Source: a virus
Lineage: Duplodnaviria > Heunggongvirae > Uroviricota > Caudoviricetes
IMG/VR virus record: IMGVR_UViG_2737471992_000010
Coordinates: 1-38,281 of that record
Direction: 5' to 3' (one strand)
DNA: 38,281 nucleotides
Position 1 is the first letter of the stretch; each line of letters starts with the position of its first letter. Both the position numbers and the translations under genes were made by a program. Below are positions 5,725 to 34,511 of this stretch, piece by piece. A model generated the notes under the pieces. It did not search any database. It was not told the origin of the DNA and saw nothing but the letters and a program-made list of their open reading frames with translations.

Positions 5725-5741
5725 ATTACCTTTCGGGTAAT
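5725..5741. promoter_or_regulatory. 17-bp palindromic operator-like site ATTACC-TTTCG-GGTAAT
   Basis: Perfect inverted repeat in the divergent region between the tail fiber start (5621) and the small antirepressor-like gene (5817). Confidence 0.6.
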
Positions 5742-5779
5742 TTGCAAAACGTGCTGGATAGCAAACAAATTATTTGTTA

Positions 5780-5795
5780 CTGTATAAACATACAG
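5780..5795. promoter_or_regulatory. LexA (SOS) box CTGT-N8-ACAG
   Basis: Sequence tacTGTATAAACATACAGtt: perfect CTGT / ACAG half-sites with an AT-rich 8-nt spacer, 22 nt upstream of the ATG at 5817 and overlapping a TATAAA -10-like hexamer. Confidence 0.65.
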
Positions 5796-5816
5796 TTATT
5801 GCATGGAGAAGATAAG

Positions 5817-6074
5817 ATGCAGCAGTATCACTATCCACTGGAAGACGGATTTACCGAAAGGATTCACACGCCGGGAGGCGTCAGGTCACTGGTGGAGGGA
5901 TCGCACTTGATGAAATTACTCCGGGATCTCGATAAGGATGGATTTAATGTCGATGGCCCACTTGCCGAACTGACTGCACTGATTAACTACGTCACCAGCT
6001 CACAGATGTCTATGCGGGATCTGCAAACACATCTCGACTATTGTGCCGAACAATTACGAAAACAAACCAGATAA
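5817..6074 (+). CDS. Small protein paralogous to the C-terminal domain of the antirepressor (candidate LexA-controlled antirepressor)
   Basis: 85 aa from the internal ATG with GGAGAA RBS; aligns with residues about 140-218 of the 6392..7048 product (PLEDGF.ERIHTPGGV..L.EGSHLM.LL..L...G..V.G..AELT....Y). The track ORF from 5694 is an upstream extension without RBS. Confidence 0.6.
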   Translation: MQQYHYPLEDGFTERIHTPGGVRSLVEGSHLMKLLRDLDKDGFNVDGPLAELTALINYVTSSQMSMRDLQTHLDYCAEQLRKQTR

Positions 6075-6104
6075 GGTTTGCAATTACCAAATGGAGTGCT
6101 TATA

Positions 6105-6121
6105 TTTACCTTTGCGGTAAA
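6105..6121. promoter_or_regulatory. 17-bp palindromic operator-like site TTTACC-TTTGC-GGTAAA
   Basis: Perfect inverted repeat, itself nested inside a longer inverted repeat GGAGTGC (6093-6099) / GCACTCC (6130-6136). Confidence 0.55.
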
Positions 6122-6211
6122 TTTACATCGCACTCCTCTTGTGCCATAGTAATCGGGCACTGGCAAAATCCAGTGCCGGGATTGGTCTCCCGGATTACTA
6201 AGTGGCGCATA

Positions 6212-6233
6212 CCACGCCAGACGTGGTTTTTTT
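6212..6233 (+). terminator. Weak terminator-like hairpin plus U-tract
   Basis: CCACG-CCAGA-CGTGG followed by seven T; lies downstream of GC-rich hairpins at 6156-6193. Confidence 0.35.
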
Positions 6234-6391
6234 ATGCGTATAGCACAGTCATGCCAGAATTATGGTGGGCTGAATGGGGGTCCGAAAGGACGCCGGTACC
6301 ACTTAGGCCGGTAAGACCAACTCCGTTCAGTTCACCACCATCTGATTGGTCTCAGCGGTGGTGATGTAATTCGCTAAGTGGAGACGCCATC

Positions 6392-7048
6392 ATGAACGCT
6401 CAACTCATCCCCGTATTCAACGGCACTATATCTAACGAAACAGCCCTACTTTGTAATGCCCGCGATCTGCACGCTTTTTTAGGTGTTAAAAAGGTGTTTG
6501 CAGCATGGATTACAAATCGCATATCAGAATACGAATTCATTGAAAATCAAGACTATATTTTGCTTTCCAATTTGGGAAAGCAAACATCTGGTAGAGGCGG
6601 CCACAACCGCAAAGAGTACCACCTCACCCTTGATACAGCCAAAGAGCTGGCGATGGTCGAGCGTAACGAAAAAGGTCGTCAGGTGCGACGCTACTTCATT
6701 GAATGCGAGAAACGTTTAAGACAACAAGAAACAAAAGTGGAGAAGGTCTTGTCAGGCTTCATGCCCGCCATTATGGAGGCGATCAAGCTGGAAGACAAAA
6801 AAGAATACAGCGCCCCACTGAAGCCCGGCTACCGCAGCCTGATTCATTCTCCGTCTGGTGTTCTCGGCCTGACGGAGAACTCACTGCTGATGAATCTGCT
6901 GAACAAGTTACAGGAAGACGGGCACGATGTATCGGGCGCGGCAGCGGAGCTGACCACCATGTTCTGCTACATCGTCGGTGTGAGCAAATGCCTGCGTGAT
7001 ATCCAGACCCACGCGGAGTACATCAACGACAAGGCAGGGTTCTTCTGA
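6392..7048 (+). CDS. Antirepressor (AntA-type N-terminal domain plus C-terminal domain)
   Basis: 218 aa; N-terminal region (VFNGT...[29 protein letters not shown]) resembles AntA/AntB antirepressor domains; GGAG RBS 10 nt upstream. Confidence 0.75.
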
Positions 7049-7119
7049 CGGGCGGTGGCACAGGGATGTGCCTTTAAATAATTCTGTACAGATTGCAGAC
7101 TGTGGGTGAATAGCGTACT

Positions 7120-7136
7120 ATTACCTTAAAGGTAAA
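7120..7136. promoter_or_regulatory. 17-bp palindromic operator-like site ATTACC-TTAAA-GGTAAA abutting the RBS of the 7148 gene
   Basis: Inverted repeat whose right edge overlaps the AGGAGG RBS (7136-7141) of the ORF starting at 7148. Confidence 0.55.
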
Positions 7137-7147
7137 GGAGGCGCGAT

Positions 7148-7312
7148 ATGACAGCGTTGAAAAATCGTACTCAGCACAATGAACAAGCAAAGCAATGCTG
7201 GGATGTCATTGGAAAAGTTATGCTTGGCCGCGCAAGCAAAGAGCGCGACAAGGATATGGTTTACCAGACAGGAACATCTTTCAGCGACTTCAAGGCGGCA
7301 TTTCGCTCCAAA
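7148..7312 (+). CDS. Small basic protein (55 aa), unknown function; not in the supplied ORF track
   Basis: ATG at 7148 preceded by AGGAGG at 6-nt spacing; translation MTALKNRTQHNEQAKQCWDVIGKVMLGRASKERDKDMVYQTGTSFSDFKAAFRSK; stop TAG at 7310-7312. Confidence 0.45.
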
Positions 7313-7335
7313 TAGAAGCACATCAGGAGTTTTCC

Positions 7336-7776
7336 TTGAAGTTTAACATTAGAATATCTAATAGTTTTCTACATGGGGAAAGCAACACCCCTTTCGCTGT
7401 AGACGGACCTTTCCTTACTGATGATGAAATAAAAATCATACAAAGTTTTTTAGAGGATGTTGCCAATGGAAGGGCGCTTGTTGGAAAAAACAAGCCCTCG
7501 TGGGTTGATGATAACCATGATAAAATTCCCGGCTCAGACAATTATGAGCAAGAGAATTATTGGCATTATCATTGTGGGCCAACATGGTATCCAAACACAT
7601 TTAAGAATTATACCATTAACTTAAATTTCAACCCTGGCGGAAGGCATTCTAATGAATGCATTCATTATGCAAAAAATGATAATGAAATTGTCATTGTTGG
7701 ATTTTCAAGAGAACACATACCTTTCCTTTCATCAGATGGAAACAACAATCCGCTTTTTAATGATGAAGAAGAATAG
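7336..7776 (+). CDS. AT-rich accessory gene of unknown function, about 146 aa, probable TTG start
   Basis: Long ORF with visibly lower GC than its surroundings; no in-frame ATG after 7195; AGGAG RBS (7325-7329) 6 nt before TTG 7336; acidic C-terminus NDEEE; followed by a strong terminator. Confidence 0.5.
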   Translation: MKFNIRISNSFLHGESNTPFAVDGPFLTDDEIKIIQSFLEDVANGRALVGKNKPSWVDDNHDKIPGSDNYEQENYWHYHCGPTWYPNTFKNYTINLNFNPGGRHSNECIHYAKNDNEIVIVGFSREHIPFLSSDGNNNPLFNDEEE

Positions 7777-7796
7777 CCCGCGCTGCGGGCTTTTTT
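7776..7796 (+). terminator. Rho-independent terminator
   Basis: GCCCGC-GCT-GCGGGC stem-loop immediately followed by TTTTTT. Confidence 0.65.
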
Positions 7797-7868
7797 GTGG
7801 ACGAAACAAAAGTCAGTGCTACACTCATTGACGCCACATTGAGGTGGCTTATAGATGGAAATTTCACA

Positions 7869-8030
7869 ATGAAAAAAGCATTTGCTGCACTGTTCGTTTT
7901 GTTGTCTCTGGTAGCTTCAACTCAGGCCTTTGCCGGTCGTTGTCAGCACGACAGCGACACTGCCGCTGACGGCTCCCGCTGCGGTGGGCGTTCTGCGGAT
8001 TCCCGCCCGGGCGGCGGTGGCATTCGTTAA
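7869..8030 (+). CDS. Small secreted Gly/Arg-rich protein (53 aa)
   Basis: Internal ATG gives MKKAFAALFVLLSLVASTQAFA signal peptide then a short mature peptide; weak RBS, so the call is tentative. Confidence 0.35.
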   Translation: MKKAFAALFVLLSLVASTQAFAGRCQHDSDTAADGSRCGGRSADSRPGGGGIR

Positions 8031-8035
8031 AAACA

Positions 8036-8065
8036 AGGCCGCGAAAGCGGCCTGTGACATGTCAC
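8036..8065. terminator. Hairpin between convergent genes, possibly a bidirectional terminator
   Basis: AGGCCGC-GAAA-GCGGCCT stem-loop followed by palindrome GTGACATGTCAC and a T-rich run. Confidence 0.4.
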
Positions 8066-8358
8066 GTCCCTTTTCTGAATGATAGCCATTCGAAAAATGA
8101 TGACATTCCACCGCAGACAATAGCAAAGATGATCCCACCAAAGAAGAGAAGGCCAGCCTGCCACCACTCCCACCGCCATACATCCACAGCGCCAACCATA
8201 CCAACAATCGCTCCAACAAATGGAATATAGCTCACGATGAAAGCAATGGGGGCTGCAATTATCCAGTGCAATCCCCACCATGATTCAAGCCCAGCCATAA
8301 TTGCTGCCAACTGAAAAAGACCAACGACGATATAAACAATGAATCCTATAGCTTGCAT
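8062..8358 (-). CDS. Small integral membrane protein (98 aa), last gene of the virion operon
   Basis: AGGTGA RBS 6 nt upstream of ATG; three hydrophobic segments rich in Trp/Gly. Confidence 0.55.
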   Translation of the reverse strand: MQAIGFIVYIVVGLFQLAAIMAGLESWWGLHWIIAAPIAFIVSYIPFVGAIVGMVGAVDVWRWEWWQAGLLFFGGIIFAIVCGGMSSFFEWLSFRKGT

Positions 8359-8370
8359 GTAGTCACCTAT

Positions 8371-8544
8371 TTACCCAGTAAAAATCAGAGGCCTCCCCTC
8401 AATAAGGCTTGCAACAAGAACTACTCCCTGCACAACAAAGATGAACCAGCAAATAGCTTGAGTCTGAGGGTTAAGAAAATATTTGTAGCGGTCAATAAAT
8501 AACAGCCCACCAGAAATTATCACACTCAAAATAATTAAAAACAC
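8371..8544 (-). CDS. Possible small hydrophobic protein (about 57 aa, GTG start); not in the ORF track
   Basis: ORF in frame directly after the stop of the 824-aa gene; translation has two hydrophobic stretches (FLIILSVIISGGLLFI, ICWFIFVVQGVVLVASLI); no ATG start, so low confidence. Confidence 0.25.
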   Translation of the reverse strand: MFLIILSVIISGGLLFIDRYKYFLNPQTQAICWFIFVVQGVVLVASLIEGRPLIFTG

Positions 8545-8553
8545 AACACTTCC

Positions 8554-11028
8554 TTATTGCGGAGTGACATCCTGAGGTCGCCACCAGTATGTCTGGTTAA
8601 ACTCTTTCTTCGAACGTTGCTCCATTTTACGCAAATAGCCTGGTGAAAAATACTCCTGCATCTGGTTAAAGATCATGTGATCAAGAGCTGCCTTCAAGTA
8701 CCAGAGATTCGCACCTGGCATCAGCCCTTTCCCAAGTTTCACCAGATCACCACCAGTCTGCTCGTTCTTCCCTTCCACAGCATTTAATGGTATGCCCTGA
8801 GCTATCTTCACTACGTCATCAACCAGGCCAGCTACCGGGCCAAGCATCGACGCCAGCGCGCCGCTTCCGTACCTAGTGTGATCTGACAATAAAAAGTCAC
8901 CGTAAAGGCCAAGACCACCACCTTTCAGTAGAGCACCAAGCCAAAATTTAGCAGCATCTTCTCCTGTCATCTCGCGAGGATTACGACCAGACGCAAGGTC
9001 GTTAAGTTGCTGCGACAAAGCGCCAAGAATGGTCGTACTGGCAATAAACGTCGCAATATATGCCGCACGCCCACCAGCAGACGGCATACCCATAGCGCGT
9101 GACCAGTGACGCATAACCACCGAGATAGGGAACGATTTAAACAGGAAAACACTTCTCGTTAATTCACCTTTCCATGTTCCACGCTGAATACCAGAACCGG
9201 TTATCAGTTGCTCACGTGCTCCCGGTGTAATAACAGCCATATCAACTTCTTCAGTTACGGCACCGAGCAGTTTACGCATTGCCTCAAATTTCACGCGTTC
9301 AGGCTCACCAAGATGTTTAACTGCTGAATCAGGGATACGCATAATGCTTTCCGGTGTCAGCATCGTATTATTACCGTTCCCCCAGTCCTCCTGTTGCGCC
9401 AGCTTCCATACGCTCCAGTCTGTGTCAGTAATCCCTTTGCTTTTCAGGATACGAAAATCAGAGTCATCGAGGCTACGAAGGTCTGGTGTCCGTGACACTA
9501 CTTCTCCCAGGCTTCCCATCATGGTTACGCCATAGGCGCGCTTGTGCGCATCTGACCATGCTGTAAGCCCACTGGCACGCATTACCGCCGTTGCTGCCCA
9601 ACGAGACACTGACGGCCCCATATTATCCATCGCCCAGCGGTTAACGCTGCCAAGTAGAGATTCCATTGCCAGACCAGCGCGGCGCGCCCGCGCAAGTTCT
9701 GTACGGTTCGTTGGGTCCATAGCTTCAAGCTGGTTGCGGAATAACTGGTTCATTGGAAGGTTGGTCACCTTCGCAGACAGATACATGGTTCCAAGATCAG
9801 AGAACGATGATAGCAACGCGGATCCGAGTCTGCTGGCAACCAGCCAGTTGCGGATATTGTCAGACCATCGCGCGATGTGCGGATTCGCTACAGGCTGTGT
9901 CTTTCCGGAAATAAAGTTGTACAGATTCTCTGTGTTGTTCGCCAGCCGCTCGACTTTACCGGTTTTACTCGGGTTAGCTGTTGCCGTTTCTGCCTTCACC
10001 TGATCAAGAAGAGAGCGGAAAACATGATCGGGGTTTGGGCCATATGTTTCCACCAGTGCAATATCTTTACTGATACCTTCCAGGTGACCGACCATGATTT
10101 CCCATAGAGAGCGATCGCCATAAAGTTGCTGATATTGCAGATATGAATCTGCATCTTTGAAATGTATCTGTCGTGATGCATTACCACGGTTAGCACGTGC
10201 GCCGGAAATTCGCATGCCGGTATCAGTAAGCTTATTCAGCCCACCAGTGGCGATTGTGTTATAAGCTTCTCCAAGAAATGCAGACAACTCGGCATCGTTC
10301 ATCAGTTGTCCATCGGCTCGGATATAATATTTGCGATCCAGCTTACCTATAACATCGCTAACCCACTTATCCTTTGATACCGCCCCAACCTTTTCCATAG
10401 AATGATGTTGAGGGATCCCCCAGTTTTCGAGATAGCCAATGTCCCCACCAGCATCATTAAACCGGCGGCGCAGTAGCTCTGTCACTTCTCTCCACGCCTT
10501 AGCACCTTTTCTTGCTTTAGCATTGCCAGTATTTTGCCCCCGCATTTCATATACCAGGTCACGTACGCCCGCTTCATCTTCAAACAGACCAAAAAAGCGA
10601 GGATCAACTGCTTCGAATGCCTCCTGCAATTGACTCAATGCATAATCACGGGTGGCTTTTGTTCTGGATTCAACAGAGAGGAAATTCGATTTACCGTCTG
10701 CATTAAAAGCAATAGTACGGTTAAGAGCGCCAAGTTTCCCATCAGCCCCTTGATAGCTATTGATAAATTTATCCAATCTCTGACGTGCGGCTATAGTGAG
10801 GGCCACACGACGTTTCTTTAATGCCGCTTCTCGCTGTAATTCTTCAGATGCCAATTGTGCTGCACGATATAGCCGCTCTGATTCGGAAAGTTGTCTCCAC
10901 GACATCGGGTCATCACGAGCAATAGAGCGCATATTTCGATAAATGCGGTCTTCAATGTTCTGTATTTCTCGCGCCGTTAACGTGCGCTGCGCCGCCTGCT
11001 GGACCGCTTGTATACATTCCTGTCTCAT
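8554..11028 (-). CDS. Large internal virion/ejection protein (T7 gp16-position)
   Basis: 824 aa ORF in an overlapping chain of virion genes downstream of the tail tubular genes. Confidence 0.65.
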   Translation of the reverse strand: MRQECIQAVQQAAQRTLTAREIQNIEDRIYRNMRSIARDDPMSWRQLSESERLYRAAQLASEELQREAALKKRRVALTIAARQRLDKFINSYQGADGKLGALNRTIAFNADGKSNFLSVESRTKATRDYALSQLQEAFEAVDPRFFGLFEDEAGVRDLVYEMRGQNTGNAKARKGAKAWREVTELLRRRFNDAGGDIGYLENWGIPQHHSMEKVGAVSKDKWVSDVIGKLDRKYYIRADGQLMNDAELSAFLGEAYNTIATGGLNKLTDTGMRISGARANRGNASRQIHFKDADSYLQYQQLYGDRSLWEIMVGHLEGISKDIALVETYGPNPDHVFRSLLDQVKAETATANPSKTGKVERLANNTENLYNFISGKTQPVANPHIARWSDNIRNWLVASRLGSALLSSFSDLGTMYLSAKVTNLPMNQLFRNQLEAMDPTNRTELARARRAGLAMESLLGSVNRWAMDNMGPSVSRWAATAVMRASGLTAWSDAHKRAYGVTMMGSLGEVVSRTPDLRSLDDSDFRILKSKGITDTDWSVWKLAQQEDWGNGNNTMLTPESIMRIPDSAVKHLGEPERVKFEAMRKLLGAVTEEVDMAVITPGAREQLITGSGIQRGTWKGELTRSVFLFKSFPISVVMRHWSRAMGMPSAGGRAAYIATFIASTTILGALSQQLNDLASGRNPREMTGEDAAKFWLGALLKGGGLGLYGDFLLSDHTRYGSGALASMLGPVAGLVDDVVKIAQGIPLNAVEGKNEQTGGDLVKLGKGLMPGANLWYLKAALDHMIFNQMQEYFSPGYLRKMEQRSKKEFNQTYWWRPQDVTPQ

Positions 11029-11033
11029 TTAAT

Positions 11034-18826: not shown

Positions 18827-19431
18827 CAGGACAACCTCGCAATGGTAAACTCGTCAACCGGTGGCAGTGGTTCCTGTGATTCATTCTGGCTATGCGAGCC
18901 AGCACTAAGAATCACGCGATTGTACATATTGAGGGCAAACGTACCGAGGTCTGCATTCCCAGTCAGCGCCATGTTAATAGCTGCCGCAAGACGCCAGGCC
19001 AACGCCTCCATAAAAATGGCATCAAACATGTTCACATCTGTAACGCGAGATACATACTTGAGCCATGCCTGCGGCTGGTCTGTGTAGATCAACTTTCCTG
19101 TTCCGTTGGTGTCTGCACCAACTTCGTACTGAACGCGCATTGCTGCTGTTGGATTGCGTACACCAGGAAGCATAATTTCAGTAATGCGCAGACAATCGGA
19201 CGGGTACTGGTACGCATATTCCCAGTCAGGCGGTGGATTGCTCGTATCTGCAAGCGCCACGCGTTTGGTAGCAAAGTTCCAGTCAAAATCAGAAAGCACA
19301 GCATCACGGCAGGCCTCAAAGTGCAGCGAACATTCCCCCGCTTCCTTGCTGGCTTCCGTCAGGCTGTTAATACTGCGGCTGTTGCCAATATTGGACAGCG
19401 CACGATTGCAGATCTCTACTACAGAGGCCAT
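18826..19431 (-). CDS. Tail tubular protein A-like
   Basis: 201 aa; position and size match T7 gp11. Confidence 0.6.
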   Translation of the reverse strand: MASVVEICNRALSNIGNSRSINSLTEASKEAGECSLHFEACRDAVLSDFDWNFATKRVALADTSNPPPDWEYAYQYPSDCLRITEIMLPGVRNPTAAMRVQYEVGADTNGTGKLIYTDQPQAWLKYVSRVTDVNMFDAIFMEALAWRLAAAINMALTGNADLGTFALNMYNRVILSAGSHSQNESQEPLPPVDEFTIARLS

Positions 19432-19450
19432 AAGTTTCTATACTCCTGCA

Positions 19451-24215: not shown

Positions 24216-24304
24216 ATCAATGACTCCGTACGCAATTAAATTATTACCAATTTAACCACATATGATTTATTTATCGTAGACAGTTGACATTTAACGCGCG
24301 AATT

Positions 24305-24321
24305 ATTACCTTTCAGGTAAC
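24305..24321. promoter_or_regulatory. 17-bp palindromic operator-like site ATTACC-TTTCA-GGTAAC next to a consensus -35
   Basis: Inverted repeat with TTGACA at 24284-24289 just upstream; lies between the divergent virion operon (minus) and the tRNA/accessory unit (plus). Confidence 0.55.
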
Positions 24322-24642
24322 CAAAGAGTTCATTCCGGTTACTAACCTGACTGGCTTGTCGTTAAATTGAACAGGTGGAGTGAGCTTTTATTTTGAGCAG
24401 TACGGCGTATGGCACATGCGCCGATAGCGGTCTGGATGCGTTTAAGGGGCACCCTCCCTTGCTCGGGCAAACGAACCAGGTAGCCGGAATGTGCAAGTCG
24501 AGCGGTTTTATTCCGCGCACGGGGATTCACCATCCCGGCGATTCGGTGTGACGCCTCGGAAGAGACGAGGGTACAACGATGAGAGCATTTATGGAGCCGC
24601 GACAAAGTGTGGCGCCTTAACAGGCTAAGTGCTCTCAGCGTT

Positions 24643-24719
24643 GTGGCATTAGCTCAGTTGGACAGAGCAACCGCCTTCTAAGCGGTTGGTCGCAGGTTCG
24701 AATCCTGCATGCCACGCCA
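24643..24719 (+). tRNA. tRNA-Arg, anticodon UCU (reads AGA)
   Basis: Hand-folded cloverleaf: 7-bp acceptor stem GTGGCAT/ATGCCAC, D arm GCTC...GAGC, anticodon stem ACCGC/GCGGT with loop CTTCTAA, T arm GCAGG-TTCGAAT-CCTGC, discriminator G and encoded CCA. Confidence 0.9.
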
Positions 24720-24917
24720 GAATCACGCCTAAGGACCGTGATGCCAGAAGTTCCAGGGGCTTGGCGGTGATGGTTTCCCTTGAAGGACTATCACCGCCCT
24801 TTTTACAGCAGGACGCCATTGCGATGACTTCATGCTGTAAACCAGTACAGCCACGGAAGGCATAACTCATTGCTTCCAGTTCGCCCGGTTCGCCGGGCAT
24901 TTTTTTAAGGTGAGATT

Positions 24918-26840: not shown

Positions 26841-27433
26841 TGATTGCCATCCTGACGTTCTTTCAGTCTCTTCCTGGCTGCCGCTATGCGATCAGCAATT
26901 GTCACATTCACATTAACATCCAGGCGTTCTTTGAATGCATTGACATCGACGTGCTTACCAATCAGCTCAAGGTTCTTCACCTTGTCAGGCCATTTAATTT
27001 TTTTGAGGATTGTCTCTATCGAATCCTCGTTCATGTTCATGATGGTCGATGACAGATCAAAGCCGCTAAGCGTAGTGCGCCAGATTTTCGGCCACTCGCG
27101 GATTGGCTTAAGGCTCCCATCGTCGTTGAGGATATCAATCACGTCCATCTGGTCGATCTCCACCAGGCGCATGAGAACGTAATCAGCACTGACGCGCATT
27201 CGTTTGTTGCGCTCCTCCATCAACTCGGCAATCCGTTTTTGAATGCGTTCATCGCGCATCATGACACTGGCTTTAACTGCCGCTGTATTTGGGGAGAATC
27301 CTGCGTTAATCGCTGCCTGAGTCTGGTTTTCAGGCGTTTTGATGTATGACTGGCAATAAGCCTCCTGCATTGCTGTTAGTGGCTTAAATTGCGTTGATTT
27401 GCGTTTATAGGCTTTAGGTTCAGCAGGCATCAT
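26837..27433 (-). CDS. Terminase small subunit
   Basis: About 198 aa from MMPAEPKAYKRK; conserved TAMQEAYCQSYIKTP...AAINAGFSPNTA region; the track N-terminal extension (27434-27511) looks spurious. Confidence 0.7.
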   Translation of the reverse strand: MMPAEPKAYKRKSTQFKPLTAMQEAYCQSYIKTPENQTQAAINAGFSPNTAAVKASVMMRDERIQKRIAELMEERNKRMRVSADYVLMRLVEIDQMDVIDILNDDGSLKPIREWPKIWRTTLSGFDLSSTIMNMNEDSIETILKKIKWPDKVKNLELIGKHVDVNAFKERLDVNVNVTIADRIAAARKRLKERQDGNQ

Positions 27434-27551
27434 AACCACCGTGGTAATAGTTACCGTTGTGGTAATAGTACCATGCAAAATAAAGCCGCCATAGTTGGCG
27501 GCAGTATTCAAAACCCGTCAAATTCATCATGCATAATCTACTCGTGACATG

Positions 27552-27890
27552 TCACACTATTAATTTCGTTTCATGCCAGCCTTTAGTCACCCAGCATTGT
27601 GAGTCACCATTACACGGACATGAATTAACTGGAACTCTCTCGCCGCACTTACCGCAACGTGTTCTGCTGATCGATTTTATACGCCCGTGCACGCGTGCAT
27701 CATCCTGGCGGATCAGTAACGCTATATACTCACCAAATTCGTAAGGCGCACGCCCGGGGCGACGCGTGGCACAGTTACGCTCCAGCATTTCAATTTCCTG
27801 AGCATCAAGCACAATCTCCAGCTTACGCACACCAGATGCAGCTTGTCTGGCTCTCTGAGCGGCTTTGCGCTCTGCTGCTGATTTAGCCAT
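27552..27890 (-). CDS. Basic protein with C-terminal Cys-rich zinc-ribbon-like motif, at the Q/late-regulator position
   Basis: 112 aa; Arg/Lys-rich N-terminus, CGKCGERVPVNSCPCNGDSQC near the C-terminus; immediately upstream of terminase. Confidence 0.4.
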   Translation of the reverse strand: MAKSAAERKAAQRARQAASGVRKLEIVLDAQEIEMLERNCATRRPGRAPYEFGEYIALLIRQDDARVHGRIKSISRTRCGKCGERVPVNSCPCNGDSQCWVTKGWHETKLIV

Positions 27891-29784: not shown

Positions 29785-30266
29785 TGGTTGCCCTCCTTCA
29801 TAAAAATAATCCAGTGGGTCTTGTCACCCTTTCCTGTTCGTTGACCGATAACAGGCTTTCTGTCTGTCAGTGCCAATATTTGGCGAACAGGTATTTGCGT
29901 TTCATTCCATTTAAAAATCAGAACACCATATGGCCACAACACACGAAAGGCTTCTTTAAATCCCTGCCGCAAATCATCACGCCAGGTATCTTTATTCAGC
30001 CGTCCATATTTCTTTCCCATCCAGGCGTTATCACCAACACGCTCAAGATGCGGAGGGTCGAATACAACAACCGGAAACGATGCGTCTGCAAATGGTAATG
30101 CACGAAAATCTGCTATCAGGTCAGGGCTAATTATCAGCCGTCGGCCATCACACAATATGTGATCTTCCTTTCTGATATCGCTAAATATCGCCCGGTCGTC
30201 CTTCTTATCGAACCAGAACATGCGACTGCCACAGCACATGTCGAGGATTGCTGCATGTCCAGTCAC
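29781..30266 (-). CDS. Small orphan DNA methyltransferase (amino-methyltransferase type, DPPH motif)
   Basis: 161 aa; SAM-binding-like LDMCCGSR near the N-terminus and catalytic-type tetrapeptide DPPH (VVVFDPPHL); no adjacent restriction gene. Confidence 0.55.
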   Translation of the reverse strand: MTGHAAILDMCCGSRMFWFDKKDDRAIFSDIRKEDHILCDGRRLIISPDLIADFRALPFADASFPVVVFDPPHLERVGDNAWMGKKYGRLNKDTWRDDLRQGFKEAFRVLWPYGVLIFKWNETQIPVRQILALTDRKPVIGQRTGKGDKTHWIIFMKEGNQ

Positions 30267-30919: not shown

Positions 30920-30980
30920 CTTTACCCTCGCTTATCCACATAACTTATTGATTACACTGATAACTAAAAAGATCGTCGAT

Positions 30981-31325
30981 TCAGAACTCTTCGATGTTCC
31001 AGCCACCACCTGCTTTCTTTGGCTTAACCGTTACCCCGATGATTCGGAACGGATACTGATCTGCGGCGACTTTGGTTTTCACCCTGGCGTCGTCGGTCCA
31101 GAAACCTTTCACTTCGTGCAGTTCCATCTCGCCGGTGGCGAGCATCACAGCAAAATCGGGCGTATAGAACGTGTTGTCAGCTAACCGCAACTTGATACCC
31201 TCGAATCGATACCAGGCGATTTCCCCTGCACGTTTACGCTGCTCAAGGTGCTGGCAATACGCAGATTCTGTTTTGTTCATCTGGCCTGTTTTGAGTCGAC
31301 CAAGAGCCTGCATCTGTTTTCTCAT
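30981..31325 (-). CDS. DUF1064-family phage protein
   Basis: 114 aa; pattern NKTE..Y...LE..K.AGEI..Y.FE.IKL.LA...YTPDF.V...GE.E.HEVKG typical of DUF1064 proteins found next to phage replication genes. Confidence 0.6.
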   Translation of the reverse strand: MRKQMQALGRLKTGQMNKTESAYCQHLEQRKRAGEIAWYRFEGIKLRLADNTFYTPDFAVMLATGEMELHEVKGFWTDDARVKTKVAADQYPFRIIGVTVKPKKAGGGWNIEEF

Positions 31326-31327
31326 GA

Positions 31328-31406
31328 TTTACCCATGAGGTAATTAAAAACCACATAAGACACGAAATCAATAGATCTTAGAACATTTTATTACCTAGCA
31401 GGTAAT
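31328..31406. promoter_or_regulatory. Two 17-bp palindromic operator-like sites (31328-31344 TTTACC-CATGA-GGTAAT; 31390-31406 ATTACC-TAGCA-GGTAAT)
   Basis: Both inverted repeats lie in the 117-bp gap between the P stop and the DUF1064 start; the first abuts the DUF1064 start codon. Confidence 0.55.
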
Positions 31407-31442
31407 TATCAAGACGTAAAAAAATGCGCTATCGCGCTGGTA

Positions 31443-32243
31443 TTACTTGATAAATCCTGCCGCCTTTCCCCGCCTGTATTCCTCCATCAGCCACTGCGCC
31501 GGTGTTATTCCCCCCAGGGTAGCGGCGTTAGGCATACACCCGAAACTTCGCCCTGGTGGATGGTAAACGTCTCTCCCTGTGTCCGGAGGCGTACTCATGG
31601 GTTCTGGCTTTGCCTGTATGCTGATCACCGGATCGGGTATCTGCTGTCCGGAAGCCACCTTTTTCGCCCAATCATCAAGCAGCCTGCGCGCGTGTTTCTC
31701 AACCTCAATCTCGCTAAGCTGGCGCTGATACATTGCACGGCGGGTATCACATACGACCCAGTACATAACCGGATGCCGCCACGGGAATCTTTCGGGACCA
31801 CCAGGATATAAACTTTTTTCCTTGCTGTACCGGTGAAACTCCGCCATCACATCGTCAATGGTGACGCCAAGAACCATCTTGCTGTCTTTACACCACTTGA
31901 TAAATTGCCCTGGCGACGGCCAGAACGGAGATTCACTGGCGCGGGCGTGGCGCATACCAGCAGAAACCTGTTCACGGGTTCGGATCCCCCCTTCGGCAAA
32001 CGCAGCAATCCACTGCTGTTTTGCAGCAACTTCCTGCTCTGGCGTCTTCAGGTTGGTTACCACTGCCGCCGGAAACAGTTGTTTCAACTGTTTGAAAAGG
32101 GCATCAACAAGCCTCTCTGCTGACATGTTCACTACGTTGTCATTGTTGGTGTACTGATGCTCATAACCTGACATGCGAGAAAGGGCTTCTCCGTCACGGT
32201 TTTGTATCGCGGTAAAAACGTTGTTCACAAGAAATCCTCCCAT
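31443..32243 (-). CDS. Replication protein P-like (helicase loader)
   Basis: Segment GMRHARASESPFWPSPGQFIKWC matches lambda P GMRVARRQNRPFLPSPGQFVAWC; start may be the internal ATG at 32174. Confidence 0.75.
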   Translation of the reverse strand: MGGFLVNNVFTAIQNRDGEALSRMSGYEHQYTNNDNVVNMSAERLVDALFKQLKQLFPAAVVTNLKTPEQEVAAKQQWIAAFAEGGIRTREQVSAGMRHARASESPFWPSPGQFIKWCKDSKMVLGVTIDDVMAEFHRYSKEKSLYPGGPERFPWRHPVMYWVVCDTRRAMYQRQLSEIEVEKHARRLLDDWAKKVASGQQIPDPVISIQAKPEPMSTPPDTGRDVYHPPGRSFGCMPNAATLGGITPAQWLMEEYRRGKAAGFIK

Positions 32244-33040
32244 GCTTCAGGGCTGTTCCAGTGCGGAACGTTGTTATCAGGTAATGTTGATTGCTTCTGT
32301 CTGCTAATCTGCAGCCGCCTTGCCAGCTTCTGCTCCCACTGTGCCTGATGGTATGCCCTACCCTCAGCCATCCAGTAAATTCTGAACTCTGCAAGTTCCT
32401 GTGCCGTTGGCAGACTGTCCAGGTAGATCCCCTGCAATGAGCTTTTCCGAAGAAAGTCATCTGATGGCTGCCATTGTTCATGCATGACAAATTTGCCTAA
32501 TTGCCCTGGCCCACCAGGAGGAACAAAGTTATTCATCACGGCGTTGTTTGCGCCGGGGTCATGATGCACAGAATCCCCGTTTTTTGTCCTGCTCTCCCTC
32601 TCTTGGTTAAATGACTGGTTATATGACTGGTTCTGGATCCCGTTTTTGGGATCATTCAACATCCCGTTTTTGGGATCATTCAACATCCCGTTTTTGGGTA
32701 TATTCCCGTTTTCGGGAACATTACCGTTTTCGGGTTCATTACCCCCTTCCCGGTTGCCTTTAATGTTCCCGTTTTTGGTTATATTAAGAGAGAAAACCCG
32801 CACTCTTTTCGTCGCTCCCTTTCTCTCTCCGGTATCTGAAATAAGCCCCATTTTCATGAGCGATATAAGCCCGGCCTGCACGGTTTTTTTATTCAGGCAA
32901 GTGTCTTTAACGAGGCGTTCTATGCTGGGGTAGCAGAGGTTATATTCATCGGCTCTGTCAGCCATCGAGAGCAGTATGAGCTTTAATGACGAGCTACCTG
33001 GATCTGTCTCCCAGGCCCAATCTGTTGCATGTCTGCTCAT
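32225..33040 (-). CDS. Replication initiator O-like protein with ori iterons inside the gene
   Basis: 271 aa; N-terminal HTH-like region, central NG/PENG/PKNG peptide repeats encoded by DNA iterons; immediately upstream of the P-like gene as in lambda O-P. Confidence 0.7.
   Translation of the reverse strand: MSRHATDWAWETDPGSSSLKLILLSMADRADEYNLCYPSIERLVKDTCLNKKTVQAGLISLMKMGLISDTGERKGATKRVRVFSLNITKNGNIKGNREGGNEPENGNVPENGNIPKNGMLNDPKNGMLNDPKNGIQNQSYNQSFNQERESRTKNGDSVHHDPGANNAVMNNFVPPGGPGQLGKFVMHEQWQPSDDFLRKSSLQGIYLDSLPTAQELAEFRIYWMAEGRAYHQAQWEQKLARRLQISRQKQSTLPDNNVPHWNSPEAWEDFL
32637..32781. repeat. Origin iterons: 5-6 copies of ATCCCGTTTTTGGGAT-like inverted repeat at about 24-bp spacing, followed by an AT-rich stretch
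   Basis: Perfect copies at 32637-32652 and 32661-32676; degenerate copies at 32685-32700, 32703-32718, 32721-32736 and about 32766-32781; AT-rich atattaagagagaaaa follows. Confidence 0.75.
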
Positions 33041-33055
33041 GATTAATCTCCGCTA

Positions 33056-33256
33056 TCAGCTTGAATGTTGTGGGGAGGAATTAATCATGATCTGCTTAAT
33101 CTCTGCCCTGATACGACGGTTTGATTCCATGGTGCACTCAACACAGTGTCCGTTGTAAACCCAGCGTTCACTGTCATGTCCGTGCTTACATGGTTTTCCG
33201 GTGTAGTAGCGTTTAAGTCCGCGCTTTGCGGCATCAATACGTGTAATGATTTCCAT
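33056..33256 (-). CDS. Small zinc-finger protein at the cII position
   Basis: About 66 aa from MEIITRIDAAKRGLKRYYTGKPCKHGH...YNGHCVEC; C-x-H...C-x2-C pattern; the start is uncertain (track ORF extends to 33325). Confidence 0.4.
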   Translation of the reverse strand: MEIITRIDAAKRGLKRYYTGKPCKHGHDSERWVYNGHCVECTMESNRRIRAEIKQIMINSSPQHSS

Positions 33257-33335
33257 GGTAAGCCCTGTTATTAGTATTGGGATTACGGTCATTTTGTGCT
33301 GACACAAAAAAAAGATCAACCACATTTGGTTATTT

Positions 33336-33352
33336 ATTACCTTTGAGGTACG
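33336..33352. promoter_or_regulatory. Imperfect 17-bp palindromic site ATTACC-TTTGA-GGTACG
   Basis: Left half-site perfect, right half-site with two mismatches; between the Cro-like stop and the zinc-finger gene. Confidence 0.35.
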
Positions 33353-33406
33353 AATAGATATGAAAAGACCGCCGGGTGGCGGTCTACAGAGGGTTGTAGC
33401 TGGATA

Positions 33407-33637
33407 TCATGAGTAGAAGAAGTATGCCAGTTCTGCTTTTGAGCGCAGCCATTGTCTTGATTTACAGGCTTTAAAAAGCCCATTCATCAATACCTTACCT
33501 GGCATTTTGCGCTTACCTGTTAAGTGAGTCTGGATATAGTGACTCGTCGTTCCGGCTTCCTGTGCGAAGGCTTCACGCTCATCCGGAGTAAGTGCAAGCC
33601 AGTGCTTTTTGAAATCGAAATGTCCGTTATCGCTCAT
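33407..33637 (-). CDS. Cro/CII-like HTH regulator
   Basis: 76 aa; HTH-like segment FAQEAGTTSHYIQTHLTGKR; transcribed divergently from the repressor gene across the operator cluster. Confidence 0.5.
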   Translation of the reverse strand: MSDNGHFDFKKHWLALTPDEREAFAQEAGTTSHYIQTHLTGKRKMPGKVLMNGLFKACKSRQWLRSKAELAYFFYS

Positions 33638-33672
33638 AGCTATTGCCTGATATTTATTTCAGATAATAAATA

Positions 33673-33737
33673 TTCACCTATAAGGTAACAAAAATCAAGG
33701 ATAGTTACCCATGAGGTGCATTTACCTGTTGGGTAAT
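33673..33737. promoter_or_regulatory. OR-like operator cluster: three 17-bp sites (33673-33689 TTCACC-TATAA-GGTAAC; 33704-33720 GTTACC-CATGA-GGTGCA; 33721-33737 TTTACC-TGTTG-GGTAAT)
   Basis: Three tandem copies of the palindrome in the 154-bp divergent region between the Cro-like gene (start 33637) and the repressor gene (start 33792). Confidence 0.6.
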
Positions 33738-33791
33738 ATTGCTTTAAATTGAATCATCTTCTGATTCAGATATGAGGCGATTTTCCAGAAA

Positions 33792-34376
33792 ATGAAAAGT
33801 ATCCAGGACGTCCGCAGGCAAAATCTCAACGACTTGATCGACCGTGAATTCAATGGTGTTCAGACGCGGATGGCTGAAAAACTTGGAACTCAGGCAAATC
33901 TGGTAAACCGCTGGGCTCTTGGCAAGAAGGTTATCGGCGACCAGGTTGCGCGAAAAATTGAAGCTGCCGCCAATAAACCCCGTAACTGGCTTGATATCGA
34001 TCGCTCGCTTTCTCAGGAAGGTTTTCAGCCTGTCGGACCAAGCGACATTGGTCAACTGGCGGCTCACAACCTGGAACGCTGGATGAGCGAAAGCCGCGAC
34101 CTTTCAACGCAGGGAAAACTTCACCGCGCATCCGGCGTCGCCCAGGTAACAATCAGCCGCCTGTTAAACAATGAGGTCAGCGTTTCCATTTCCACCCTGG
34201 AGAATGTTGCATCCGCATTTGGGCGTCACGGATATGAATTACTGATTCACCCGCACGACCCCGCGACTATCAACTATGACCGCTCGCGCTACGCATTGTT
34301 ACCTGAAACAGAGAAGGCAAAGATCGAAAGTTACATTGAATTTGTCATCAACCAGAACGAAAAAAACAAACAATAA
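33792..34376 (+). CDS. Prophage repressor with two HTH (XRE-type) domains and no peptidase S24 domain
   Basis: 194 aa; two HTH-like segments (QTRMAEKLGTQANLVNRWALGKK and HRASGVAQVTISRLLNNEVS); no Ala-Gly/Ser-Lys autocleavage module; sits between OR-like and OL-like operator clusters. Confidence 0.65.
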   Translation: MKSIQDVRRQNLNDLIDREFNGVQTRMAEKLGTQANLVNRWALGKKVIGDQVARKIEAAANKPRNWLDIDRSLSQEGFQPVGPSDIGQLAAHNLERWMSESRDLSTQGKLHRASGVAQVTISRLLNNEVSVSISTLENVASAFGRHGYELLIHPHDPATINYDRSRYALLPETEKAKIESYIEFVINQNEKNKQ

Positions 34377-34397
34377 AATCATATTTTTCAGTAAGTA

Positions 34398-34421
34398 AGC
34401 CGCCTTCTGGCGGCTTTTTTA
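34398..34421 (+). terminator. Rho-independent terminator after the repressor gene
   Basis: AGCCGCC-TTCT-GGCGGCT stem-loop followed by TTTTTT. Confidence 0.65.
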
Positions 34422-34432
34422 TTGCCTATTTG

Positions 34433-34511
34433 ATTACCTAACGGGTAATTTTTTTAACTCATATCTATTGACATCAAACCAGATACGCATAATTATTACC
34501 TCAACGGTAAC
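34433..34511 (+). promoter_or_regulatory. PL-like promoter with two flanking operator sites (34433-34449 ATTACC-TAACG-GGTAAT; 34495-34511 ATTACC-TCAAC-GGTAAC)
   Basis: Consensus -35 TTGACA at 34468-34473, -10-like AATTAT about 17 nt later overlapping the second palindrome; GAGG RBS and ATG at 34530 follow. Confidence 0.55.

What the first reader, a model, noticed from the sequence alone, without database searches (positions are those of the whole stretch)
5725..34511. A 17-bp palindrome (A/T)TTACC-N5-GGTAA(A/T) recurs at 12 intergenic sites across the prophage
Twelve copies of one inverted repeat sit upstream of gene starts in eight separate intergenic regions: 5725, 6105, 7120, 24305, 31328, 31390, 33336, three at 33673-33737 and two at 34433-34511. 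The clusters of three and two flank the repressor gene exactly where lambdoid OR and OL would be, so the simplest reading is that this is the operator of the two-HTH repressor (and probably the Cro-like protein). Unlike lambda, the same operator also sits in front of the antirepressor genes, the AT-rich accessory cassette, the tRNA/virion divergent region and the DUF1064 operon, implying a distributed repressor regulon. I do not recognise the half-site as a described operator.
Basis: partly seen in the sequence, partly recalled or inferred. Interest (0 to 1): 0.8.

Follow-up and report, generated by a model that had tools for sequence, protein, structure and literature searches.

The report
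Known repressor operator of ε15-like prophage
The repeated 17-bp palindrome is real and is almost certainly the DNA site where this phiV10/ε15-type E. coli prophage's repressor binds to keep nearly all its operons silent, but the same motif is already marked as the repressor-binding site in the public record of the reference phage ε15, so it is a sound but ordinary finding.

Summary
TTACC-N5-GGTAA occurs 14 times with at most one mismatch (0.48 expected). Thirteen of those lie in the 7% of the window that is intergenic (P≈2e-14).

The window is a phiV10-like Uetakevirus prophage next to yfgI in E. coli. The same palindrome is the top palindrome in every relative tested (ε15, SPC32H, Tyrion, BUCT711 and three distant prophages), at syntenic regulatory positions. 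Phage lambda has only a chance-level hit.

The authors' ε15 GenBank record already annotates seven such sites as "repressor / lysogeny" binding sites, including distal ones at terS, the virion operon and the tail-fibre region.

The window's repressor is a full-length homologue of SPC32H Rep (PDB 5D50). That protein is not self-cleaving; it is a tetramer inactivated by a small LexA-controlled antirepressor. This antirepressor and a perfect LexA box are present here.

The sites overlap predicted −10/−35 elements or promoter spacers, and pairs 62 bp apart bracket two early promoters.

The operator reading and the "distributed regulon" are therefore supported, but only by inference, because no binding data could be read. 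The novelty claim is not supported. Interest is low to moderate.

The parts
5725..5741 (.). Operator ATTACCTTTCGGGTAAT in the divergent region between the tail-fibre gene (start 5621, -) and the small antirepressor gene (start 5817, +). Its centre is 54.5 bp from the LexA box centre.
   Evidence: Syntenic site in phiV10, ε15 (annotated 'repressor'), SPC32H, Tyrion and BUCT711. No convincing promoter overlap.
5780..5795 (.). LexA box CTGTATAAACATACAG upstream of ant.
   Evidence: Conserved upstream of ant in phiV10, ε15, SPC32H and Tyrion.
5817..6074 (+). Small antirepressor Ant (85 aa).
   Evidence: 86% identical to the gene annotated 'ant' in SPC32H. Matches phrog_450 and, more weakly, the anti-repressor family phrog_1760.
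6105..6121 (+). Operator TTTACCTTTGCGGTAAA fused to the -10 of predicted promoter TTGCAA-17-TATATT (6078-6106). This promoter drives isrK-like sRNA, then C4 antisense RNA, then the AntA-family gene.
   Evidence: Syntenic in phiV10, Tyrion, BUCT711 and L090.
6157..6342 (+). isrK-like sRNA (6157-6233) and C4 antisense RNA (6258-6342).
   Evidence: Rfam matches above gathering score: 67.7 and 61.2 bits.
6392..7048 (+). AntA/AntB-family antirepressor-like protein.
   Evidence: Pfam PF08346, E = 4e-26.
7120..7136 (+). Operator ATTACCTTAAAGGTAAA, 11 bp before the orf55 start at 7148, with a candidate -10 TACTAT fused to its left arm. It heads an accessory cassette of unknown function.
   Evidence: orf55 matches phrog_8607 and the next ORF phrog_5954. 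A variant prophage has different cassettes, each again preceded by an operator.
24305..24321 (.). Operator ATTACCTTTCAGGTAAC between the virion operon (gp3 homologue, start 24215, -) and a rightward predicted promoter TAGACA-18-AATTAT (24277-24306). That promoter leads into a conserved non-coding stretch and tRNA-Arg.
   Evidence: ε15 equivalent annotated 'repressor'. Aligned in six genomes.
27432..27466 (-). Tandem operators (27450-27466 perfect, 27432-27448 one mismatch; centres 18 bp apart). They lie between a terminator (27485-27502) and the probable terS start at 27431.
   Evidence: The same tandem pair is found in phiV10, ε15 (first site annotated 'repressor'), Tyrion, L086, L088 and L090.
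31328..31406 (-). Operator pair with centres 62 bp apart, upstream of the DUF1064 operon. Site 31390-31406 fills the spacer of promoter TTGATA-16-TAAAAT (31412-31385). Site 31328-31344 ends 2 bp before the ATG.
   Evidence: 62-bp pair conserved in 8 of 10 genomes.
33336..33352 (-). One-mismatch operator just after the terminator of the cro-like gene and 79 bp before the replication-operon gene (p42 homologue).
   Evidence: Syntenic in phiV10, Tyrion and BUCT711.
33407..33637 (-). Cro-like 76-aa regulator, first gene of the PR-like operon.
   Evidence: phrog_35 'transcriptional repressor', E = 9e-13. 59-86% identical across the genus with an invariant AGTTSHYIQ.HLT stretch.
33673..33737 (.). 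OR-like cluster.
- 33673-33689 (one mismatch) lies in the spacer of PR-like promoter TTGTTA-17-TATTAT (33691-33663, -).
- 33704-33720 has two mismatches.
- 33721-33737 (perfect) overlaps the predicted -35 of the rep promoter.
   Evidence: The same three-site layout occurs in L086-L088.
33792..34376 (+). Rep, the immunity repressor (194 aa).
   Evidence: Full-length match to PDB 5D50 SPC32H Rep, E = 4e-42. 100% identical to phiV10p40 and ZX5 ORF21. No peptidase domain. Invariant N-terminal N36/R40/W41 and tetramer-interface F184.
34433..34511 (+). OL-like operator pair with centres 62 bp apart, bracketing promoter TTGACA-17-AATTAT (34468-34496). The -10 is fused to operator 34495-34511.
   Evidence: ε15 equivalents annotated 'repressor'. 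The spacing is 62 bp in 8 of 10 genomes (63 in BUCT711, 75 in L087).

Best explanation
The 17-bp palindrome (A/T)TTACC-N5-GGTAA(A/T) is the operator of the prophage's immunity repressor Rep (33792..34376), an orthologue of ε15 gp38 and SPC32H Rep.

**In the lysogen.** Rep's N-terminal HTH domains occupy the two half-sites, whose centres are 10 bp apart, at about 14 sites in 9 control regions. Most sites are fused to a -10 hexamer, fill a promoter spacer, or overlap a -35. Binding would therefore exclude RNA polymerase from:
- the PR-like and PL-like early promoters;
- the DUF1064 (nin-like) operon and the replication operon;
- terS-terL;
- the tRNA / virion control region;
- the tail-fibre / ant region;
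- the isrK-C4-AntA module;
- an accessory cassette.

Rep also sits on its own promoter.

**Operator pairs.** Rep homologues are tetramers with two pairs of DNA-binding domains. The strictly conserved 62-bp (about 6 helical turns) operator pairs that bracket PL and the DUF1064 promoter are probably bridged by one tetramer.

**Induction.** Rep has no self-cleavage domain. DNA damage removes LexA from the box at 5780-5795, the small Ant is made, it binds Rep's C-terminal part and strips Rep from DNA. All units, including the second antirepressor AntA, are then derepressed together.

**What is shown and what is inferred.**
- Shown here: sequence, statistics, promoter overlap, synteny, homology.
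- Taken from other sources: the repressor role of the identical ZX5 protein; the tetramer and Ant mechanism of SPC32H Rep, read only at second hand; the ε15 site annotation.
- Inferred: physical binding at each site, looping, and the direction controlled at 5725 and 24305.
For: **Enrichment.**
- 14 hits against 0.48 expected, and the motif is the top palindrome in the window.
- 13 of 14 hits are intergenic, P = 2e-14.
- Lambda control at chance level.

**Prior annotation.** The authors' ε15 record (AY150271.2) and RefSeq annotate seven ATTACC-N5-GGTAAT sites as protein_bind 'repressor / lysogeny'. They lie at terS, upstream of gp3, in the gp19/tail-fibre region, left of the repressor gene, and upstream of RuvC.

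**Conservation.** The same palindrome is top-ranked, at syntenic positions, in phiV10, ε15, SPC32H, Tyrion, BUCT711, L086-L088 and L090. The N5 and flanking bases vary while the arms do not, which is the signature of base-specific protein recognition.

**Promoter overlap**.

**The protein.**
- Rep is homologous to PDB 5D50/5D4Z over its full length.
- Its N-terminal helix motif is conserved.
- It has no peptidase domain.
- SPC32H Rep binds palindromic sites as a tetramer and is disassembled by Ant (PMC9638917). Its domain order is DBD, dimerisation domain, tetramerisation domain, with the domain pairs about 100 Å apart (PMC9986798).
- The 100%-identical ZX5 Rep abolishes free phage and cuts lysis-gene transcripts by 99.97-99.99% when overexpressed (PMC9782041).

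**The induction arm.** Ant is 86% identical to SPC32H Ant, with a conserved LexA box.

**Pair spacing.** The spacing is 62 bp in 16 of the 20 OL and DUF1064/RuvC control regions compared (8 of 10 each; 63 in one more).
Against: - **No direct binding data.** No footprint, EMSA or ChIP data for this motif could be read. The primary papers (Kropinski 2007; Kim & Ryu 2013; Kim et al. 2016) are not held, and the ε15 features may themselves be predictions.
- **No covariation.** The operator is invariant although Rep diverges to 42% identity and its recognition helix varies (NLVNRW / NLVSRW / NLISRW). This leaves no covariation to tie the motif to Rep rather than to the better-conserved Cro-like protein.
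- **Unclear targets.** Site 5725 overlaps no convincing promoter. At 24305 the only promoter found points toward the tRNA, not the virion operon.
- **Affinity order.** The perfect OR site lies on the rep promoter, while the PR site carries a mismatch. This does not match lambda-style affinity logic.
- **Weak promoter evidence.** The number of promoter-like matches in these regions is no higher than in shuffled sequence, so promoter assignments rest on position and conservation.
Confidence: 0.85

Rival explanations
1. The palindrome is recognised mainly, or only, by the Cro-like 76-aa protein (33407..33637) or another phage regulator such as the 112-aa protein at 27552..27890, and not by Rep. 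Rep would act elsewhere or through other contacts.
For: - The Cro-like protein is much more conserved than Rep (59-86% against 42-78% identity) and has an invariant putative HTH, which matches an invariant operator.
- It belongs to phrog_35 'transcriptional repressor'.
- The perfect OR site lies on the rep promoter, where a Cro would act.
- The protein at 27552..27890 belongs to phrog_536 'transcriptional regulator'.
Against: - The ε15 authors assigned the sites to the repressor.
- SPC32H Rep is reported to bind palindromic sites (PMC9638917).
- The core of Rep's N-terminal helix (N36, R40, W41) is invariant.
- Prophage silencing of late and accessory units needs a factor that is present in the lysogen, and that is Rep.
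- Shared recognition by Rep and Cro, as in lambda, is more likely than exclusive Cro binding. I put shared use at about 0.5.
Confidence: 0.08
2. The repeats act in RNA. Each forms a 5-6 bp hairpin in the 5' leader that sequesters ribosome-binding sites or marks a processing site, rather than acting as a DNA operator.
For: - Several copies end 0-18 nt before a start codon (27432, 31328, 7120, 34495), so their 3' arm overlaps the Shine-Dalgarno region.
- The ε15 record also annotates RNase III sites near some of these regions.
Against: - The arm sequence is invariant across genomes and there are no compensatory changes, while the loop is free to vary. This is the opposite of what a structure-only element shows.
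- Many copies lie upstream of, or within, the -35/-10 elements and would not be transcribed.
- The half-site spacing of 10 bp fits an HTH dimer.
- A 5-6 bp A/U-rich stem is weak.
Confidence: 0.03
3. The sites are bound by a host factor, or they are conserved module-junction sequences that promote recombination between mosaic phages, and have no role in immunity.
For: The sites sit at boundaries of exchangeable modules. Variant prophages at the same att site carry different accessory cassettes, each flanked by a copy.
Against: - The motif is absent above chance from lambda.
- It is tied to genomes that encode a Rep homologue.
- The sites have fixed geometry relative to promoters and to each other (62 bp and 18 bp), which recombination linkers would not need.
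- From memory, no E. coli factor with this half-site and spacing is known to me. I did not test this.
Confidence: 0.03

Closest known systems
Repressor-binding sites annotated in Salmonella phage ε15 (AY150271.2 / NC_004775.2; Kropinski et al. 2007, Virology 369:234; paper not readable here)
   Same: - Identical consensus, ATTACC-N5-GGTAAT.
- Same genus (Uetakevirus).
- Same positions: terS, upstream of gp3, the ant/tail-fibre region, an OL pair 62 bp apart, and upstream of the RuvC/DUF1064 operon.
- Already dispersed outside the immunity region.
   Different: - The window's Rep is only 42% identical to ε15 gp38.
- The ε15 record marks 7 sites. It omits the OR cluster, the second members of the terS and RuvC-operon pairs, and the lysis-cassette site.
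- The window adds sites at the isrK-C4-AntA module and at an accessory cassette that ε15 lacks.
Rep-Ant switch of Salmonella phage SPC32H (Kim & Ryu 2013 J Virol; Kim et al. 2016 PNAS; PDB 5D50, 5D4Z)
   Same: - Full-length Rep homologue (E = 4e-42).
- Ant 86% identical, with a LexA box upstream of ant.
- No autocleavage domain.
- The same palindrome at 10 perfect sites in the SPC32H genome.
   Different: - 42% Rep identity.
- The window has an additional AntA-family antirepressor with isrK and C4 RNAs.
- What those papers show about operator sequences could not be read here.
Lambda CI/Cro with OR and OL
   Same: - Divergent repressor and cro-like genes with a three-site cluster between them.
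- A second cluster on the other side of the repressor gene.
- 17-bp two-fold symmetric sites that overlap PR-, PL- and PRM-like promoters.
   Different: - No S24 peptidase domain and no RecA-mediated cleavage.
- Two OL sites 62 bp apart instead of three adjacent ones.
- Operators also lie at late, accessory and antirepressor units.
- Lambda itself lacks the motif.
Phage P1 C1 repressor with its many dispersed operators, and the immI (c4-icd-ant) operon (from general knowledge, not tested here)
   Same: - One immunity repressor with operators scattered over the genome.
- A repressor-controlled promoter that drives a C4 antisense RNA followed by an antirepressor gene (Rfam C4 match).
   Different: - P1 operators are asymmetric, and C1 is unrelated to Rep.
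- Here the sites are palindromic and the repressor is an HTH_3-type tetramer homologue.
Rco of Bacillus plasmid pLS20 (PMC9986798)
   Same: An N-terminal HTH and a C-terminal p53-like tetramerisation domain, said to be shared with SPC32H Rep. Repression through two operators 75 bp apart with looping. An antirepressor partner.
   Different: - Direct-repeat recognition elements rather than palindromes.
- Looping by Rep at the 62-bp pairs is my inference and has not been shown.
Gifsy-1 isrK-anrP module of Salmonella (from general knowledge)
   Same: An isrK-family sRNA upstream of an antirepressor-type gene.
   Different: Here the module sits behind a Rep operator and also contains a C4 RNA. Its function was not examined.

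Membership tests
Uetakevirus (ε15/SPC32H-type) Rep operator system | Genome encodes a Rep homologue (N-terminal HTH DNA-binding domain, middle dimerisation domain, C-terminal tetramerisation / Ant-binding domain). | tested here: met
   phmmer match to PDB 5D50 over residues 1-190, E = 4e-42. Invariant N36/R40/W41 and F184.
Uetakevirus (ε15/SPC32H-type) Rep operator system | 17-bp palindrome ATTACC-N5-GGTAAT, as annotated 'repressor' in ε15. | tested here: met
   Sequences of the seven ε15 features have the same consensus as the window's sites.
Uetakevirus (ε15/SPC32H-type) Rep operator system | Sites at syntenic control regions (terS, gp3, ant/tail fibre, OL, OR, nin-like operon). | tested here: met
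   Position-by-position comparison in ten genomes.
Uetakevirus (ε15/SPC32H-type) Rep operator system | Small LexA-controlled antirepressor Ant. | tested here: met
   86% identity to SPC32H Ant. Perfect LexA box 22 bp upstream of its start codon.
Uetakevirus (ε15/SPC32H-type) Rep operator system | Rep physically binds the palindrome and Ant releases it. | not testable with these tools
   Only second-hand statements are available (PMC9638917; PMC9986798). The primary papers are not held.
Lambdoid CI/Cro switch | Repressor with a C-terminal S24 (LexA-like) autocleavage domain. | tested here: not met
   Pfam finds only HTH families. The C-terminal half aligns to the SPC32H Rep dimerisation/tetramerisation region.
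Lambdoid CI/Cro switch | Operators confined to tripartite OR and OL. | tested here: not met
   Nine regions carry sites. OL has two sites 62 bp apart.
Lambdoid CI/Cro switch | Divergent repressor and cro genes with operators overlapping PR and PRM. | tested here: met
P1 C1-type dispersed regulon | Many operators dispersed over the genome under one immunity repressor. | tested here: met
   Met as a resemblance of logic only.
P1 C1-type dispersed regulon | C1-family repressor and an asymmetric 17-bp operator. | tested here: not met
   The operator is a palindrome. Rep is an HTH_3-type protein homologous to 5D50.

The most novel reading that the evidence does not exclude
The most novel reading that the evidence leaves open has three linked parts.
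1. In this phage family a single tetrameric repressor directly gates every transcription unit: early, late, tRNA, antirepressor and swappable accessory cassettes. There is no lambda-style cascade.
2. One tetramer bridges the operator pairs held at exactly 62 bp, trapping the promoter in a very small loop.
3. The operator has stayed invariant while Rep diverged to 42% identity. Immunity specificity across the genus would then lie not in DNA recognition but in the Rep C-terminal domain / Ant pairing.

None of this could be confirmed as published or unpublished, because the primary papers were not readable.
Probability: 0.3. Interest if true: 0.45.

Novelty: already known. Interest (0 to 1): 0.22.

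Why it matters
**Practical value.**
- phiV10-type prophages are very common in E. coli. More than 80 IMG/VR contigs encode a 100%-identical Rep.
- phiV10 itself infects E. coli O157:H7.
- Knowing the operator and its roughly 14 positions gives a ready map of the Rep regulon.
- It corrects the terS start.
- It shows that the accessory cassettes and a second antirepressor module are silent in the lysogen and switched on at induction.

**Scientific value.** This is modest. The motif and its dispersed distribution were already recorded for ε15, and the Rep-Ant mechanism has been solved structurally for SPC32H. The parts that might repay work are the conserved 62-bp operator pairs (a testable looping geometry for a p53-like tetramer) and the invariance of the operator across highly diverged repressors.

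Tried and rejected
**Primary papers.** I tried to read Kropinski 2007 (DOI and PMC2698709), Kim & Ryu 2013 (PMC3807360) and Kim et al. 2016 (PMC4983836). None is held. My recollection that the ε15 paper gives a consensus like ATTACCWDWWNGGTAAT is therefore memory only. I rely on the GenBank features instead.

**Literature searches.** Searches on the motif string and on 'phiV10 / operator' found no paper that describes the operator.

**Covariation test.** I looked for relatives whose Rep recognition helix differs, expecting the palindrome to change with it.
- The IMG/VR scan returned only 100%-identical Reps.
- More distant Reps at 52-59% identity, with helix variants, still use the identical palindrome.
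- The test therefore gave no information on which protein binds.

**Structure prediction.** I did not pursue it.

**Other LexA-like boxes.** The second and third CTGT-N8-ACAG matches (20293, 24835) are not conserved outside the phiV10-type genomes and are treated as chance.

**Site 5493.** This one-mismatch hit inside the tail-fibre gene is treated as chance (about 0.5 expected).

**RNA-hairpin model.** Rejected, because the arms are invariant in sequence and show no compensatory change.

Full report
**1. Observation**

The motif is real.
- The strict 17-mer WTTACC-N5-GGTAAW occurs 7 times, against 0.01 expected.
- The 15-bp core TTACC-N5-GGTAA with at most one mismatch occurs 14 times, against 0.48 expected. 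None of 100 shuffles reached that number.
- An unbiased count of every 5+5 palindrome with gaps of 0-12 ranks TTACC/N5 first: 10 copies, with the runner-up at 4.

- Nine have a perfect core.
- Sites 33336 and 33673 each carry one mismatch.
- The middle 'OR' site (33704-33720) carries two.

On the minus strand this pair follows a terminator and ends one base before an ATG at 27431. In ε15 the equivalent pair precedes the annotated terS start. The true terS start is therefore probably 27431, and the sites are intergenic.

With a curated gene map, 13 of the 14 hits fall in the 7.2% of the window that is non-coding (binomial P = 2e-14). The single coding hit (5493, one mismatch) is at the chance level. 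Phage lambda, used as an unrelated control, has one one-mismatch hit against 0.81 expected.

**2. What the window is**

The immunity region is 98% identical to phage phiV10, and most of the window is collinear with it at 96-98%. The left end carries yfgH and yfgI of E. coli. This is therefore a phiV10/ε15-type (genus Uetakevirus) prophage, with its integrase end just beyond the right edge of the window.

**3. The motif is already annotated**

The authors' ε15 GenBank record and its RefSeq copy carry seven protein_bind features labelled 'repressor / lysogeny'. Their sequences are all ATTACC-N5-GGTAAT. They lie:
- at the terS start;
- upstream of gp3;
- between gp19 and the tail-fibre gene;
- at three places to the left of the repressor gene;
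- upstream of the RuvC operon.

Both the half-site and the idea of a dispersed set of repressor sites therefore predate this scan. I could not read the ε15 paper or the two SPC32H papers. Whether binding was shown experimentally or only predicted remains unknown to me.

**4. Conservation**

TTACC-N5-GGTAA is the top palindrome in phiV10 (8 copies), ε15 (11), SPC32H (10), Enterobacter phage Tyrion (9) and Klebsiella phage BUCT711 (9). The same holds in three more distant prophages whose Rep is only 52-59% identical, including one from Serratia.

The positions are syntenic:
- a tandem pair 18 bp apart at terS;
- one site in the gp3/tRNA region;
- one site between ant and the tail-fibre gene;
- one site after ant, where a second antirepressor module follows;
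- a pair bracketing the PL-like promoter;
- a three-site OR cluster;
- one site after the cro terminator;
- a pair at the DUF1064/RuvC operon;
- outside this window, sites before the lysis cassette and before int.

The arms never change, while the central five bases and the flanks do. This pattern indicates base-specific protein recognition rather than an RNA hairpin.

The pair spacing is 62 bp in 16 of the 20 OL and DUF1064/RuvC control regions compared (8 of 10 each, and 63 bp in one more).

A variant prophage at the same chromosomal site carries different accessory cassettes. Each of these is again preceded by a copy of the motif.

**5. Geometry relative to promoters**

The consensus scan and my own scan place the sites as follows.
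- The -10 hexamer is fused to the left arm of the operator (xxxxAT|TACC) at 6105, 7120, 24305, 27450(-) and 34495.
- The operator lies inside the 16-17 bp spacer at 31390(-) (TTGATA-16-TAAAAT) and at 33673(-) (TTGTTA-17-TATTAT, the PR-like promoter).
- The perfect site 33721 overlaps the predicted -35 of the rep promoter.

Promoter-like matches are not more numerous than in shuffled sequence. These assignments therefore rest on position and conservation, not on the scan statistics. Site 5725 overlaps no convincing promoter. At 24305 the only detectable promoter points toward the tRNA rather than toward the virion operon.

**6. The proteins**

Rep (194 aa):
- It matches PDB 5D50 (SPC32H Rep) over its whole length, E = 4e-42.
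- It has no peptidase domain.
- The core of its N-terminal helix (N36, R40, W41) is invariant in 17 homologues, as is the aromatic residue at the reported tetramer interface (F184).
- Secondary sources say SPC32H Rep binds palindromic sites as a tetramer and is taken apart by a tetrameric Ant (PMC9638917).
- They also say its middle HTH-like domain is a dimerisation module, and that the mechanism of repression 'has not been extensively characterized' (PMC9986798).
- A 100%-identical Rep in phage ZX5 abolished free phage and reduced holin and endolysin transcripts by 99.97-99.99% when overexpressed. That paper defined no operator (PMC9782041).

Ant and the second antirepressor module:
- The small ORF at 5817..6074 is 86% identical to SPC32H Ant.
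- It lies 22 bp downstream of a perfect LexA box, which is conserved in five of the phages.
- Operator 6105 heads a second module: an isrK-like sRNA, a C4 antisense RNA (both above Rfam gathering scores) and an AntA-family protein.

Cro-like protein:
- The 76-aa protein belongs to phrog_35 'transcriptional repressor'.
- It is more conserved than Rep.
- It may well share the sites, as Cro does in lambda. This is untested.

**7. Mechanism proposed**

In the lysogen, Rep tetramers occupy the operators and block the promoters of essentially every transcription unit, their own included. The 62-bp pairs (about six helical turns) are probably bridged by one tetramer.

DNA damage removes LexA. Ant is then made and strips Rep from DNA, and all units fire, including AntA, which would reinforce the switch.

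I give 0.85 to the core claim that this is the Rep operator, possibly shared with the Cro-like protein. Looping and the single-tier control of late genes are inference.

**8. Rivals**

- Exclusive binding by the Cro-like protein or another phage regulator: about 0.08.
- RNA-level hairpins: about 0.03.
- A host factor or recombination linkers: about 0.03.

The reasons are given in the rival entries.

**9. Comparison and novelty**

The system is a member of the ε15/SPC32H Rep-Ant system. All testable defining features are met.
- It works like lambda at OR and OL, but it fails two defining lambda features: it has no autocleavage domain, and its operators are not confined to OR and OL.
- It resembles P1's dispersed C1 regulon and the immI module in logic only.

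I rate it 'already known'. The increments are:
- the phiV10-type site list;
- the terS correction;
- the OR cluster and second pair members that ε15 leaves unannotated;
- the 62-bp rule;
- the operator-headed accessory cassettes.

Interest is low to moderate (0.22).

Noticed in passing
window 5780-5795 and 5817-6074: A perfect LexA box (CTGTATAAACATACAG) lies 22 bp upstream of an 85-aa ORF that is 86% identical to the SPC32H antirepressor Ant. The prophage is therefore probably SOS-induced through an antirepressor rather than by repressor cleavage. phiV10 and PGAP call this ORF hypothetical.
   Followed up: yes
window 6078-7048: Behind operator 6105 lie a predicted promoter, an isrK-family sRNA with its terminator (6157-6233), a C4 antisense RNA (6258-6342) and an AntA-family gene (6392-7048). 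This is a P1 immI-like / Gifsy-1 isrK-anrP-like second antirepressor module. I did not look for C4 target sites in the antA leader.
   Followed up: partly
window 24364-24600 (+), between operator 24305 and tRNA-Arg(TCT) 24643-24719: - A conserved non-coding stretch of about 240 nt with predicted hairpins and some compensatory changes (51 predicted pairs, 5 with double changes among 5 sequences).
- No Rfam family matches it.
- It is present in phiV10, SPC32H, Tyrion, BUCT711 and L088, truncated in ε15, and absent in L086 and L087.
- It may be a structured RNA co-transcribed with the tRNA from a Rep-controlled promoter.
   Followed up: partly
window 27431-27511; phiV10 41-118: The terS start is probably the ATG at 27431(-), directly after the tandem operators. 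The phiV10 annotation and the PGAP annotation of a related prophage extend the CDS across the operators and an upstream terminator hairpin.
   Followed up: partly
window 24649-24900 (-): The equivalent of the annotated phiV10p04 ORF overlaps tRNA-Arg on the opposite strand and is probably not a gene.
   Followed up: no
window 19431-19439: The homologue of phiV10p13 / ε15 gp10 (the capsid 'staple' protein) is cleanly absent. About 325 bp are replaced by 8 bp, and tblastn finds no copy elsewhere in the window. The related prophage in strain TUM9975 has it. Whether this affects virion stability or prophage viability is unknown.
   Followed up: partly
window 5667-5700: An invariant block, ATTCTATTACC..AAAAACC.TATATG, is conserved in six genomes between the tail-fibre start and operator 5725. 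It contains a lone ATTACC half-site. On the minus strand it reads GGTAATAGAAT, a possible -10 (TAGAAT) for the tail-fibre/lysis transcript.
   Followed up: partly
window 31328/31390 and 34433/34495; also loci L001-L005, L086, L088, L090: Operator pairs bracketing promoters are spaced exactly 62 bp centre to centre at 16 of the 20 OL and DUF1064/RuvC control regions compared across relatives. The tandem pairs at terS are 18 bp apart. This suggests one Rep tetramer per 62-bp pair.
   Followed up: partly
window 7148-8358: An accessory cassette headed by operator 7120.
- It comprises orf55 (phrog_8607), a roughly 145-aa AT-rich ORF (phrog_5954), a small secreted or membrane protein (phrog_3117 / 14503), and a 98-aa membrane protein on the other strand (phrog_3075).
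- All are of unknown function.
- A variant prophage at the same site instead carries a YafO-type toxin pair and an ORF6N protein, each behind its own operator copy.
   Followed up: partly
outside the window: phiV10 26870, ε15 26882, SPC32H 26959, Tyrion 28567, BUCT711 12619, L086 15723, L088 16782: A conserved one-mismatch copy (ATTACCTTAAAGGTATA-like) lies just upstream of int in every relative. In ε15 it abuts a feature annotated as an integrase arm site. The window ends before this position.
   Followed up: no
window 3087-3158: This prophage has no O-antigen-modification gene (oac or equivalent) and no operator before the lysis cassette, unlike phiV10, ε15, SPC32H and Tyrion. The lysis genes follow the tail-fibre gene after a 72-bp gap and are probably co-transcribed with it.
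   Followed up: no
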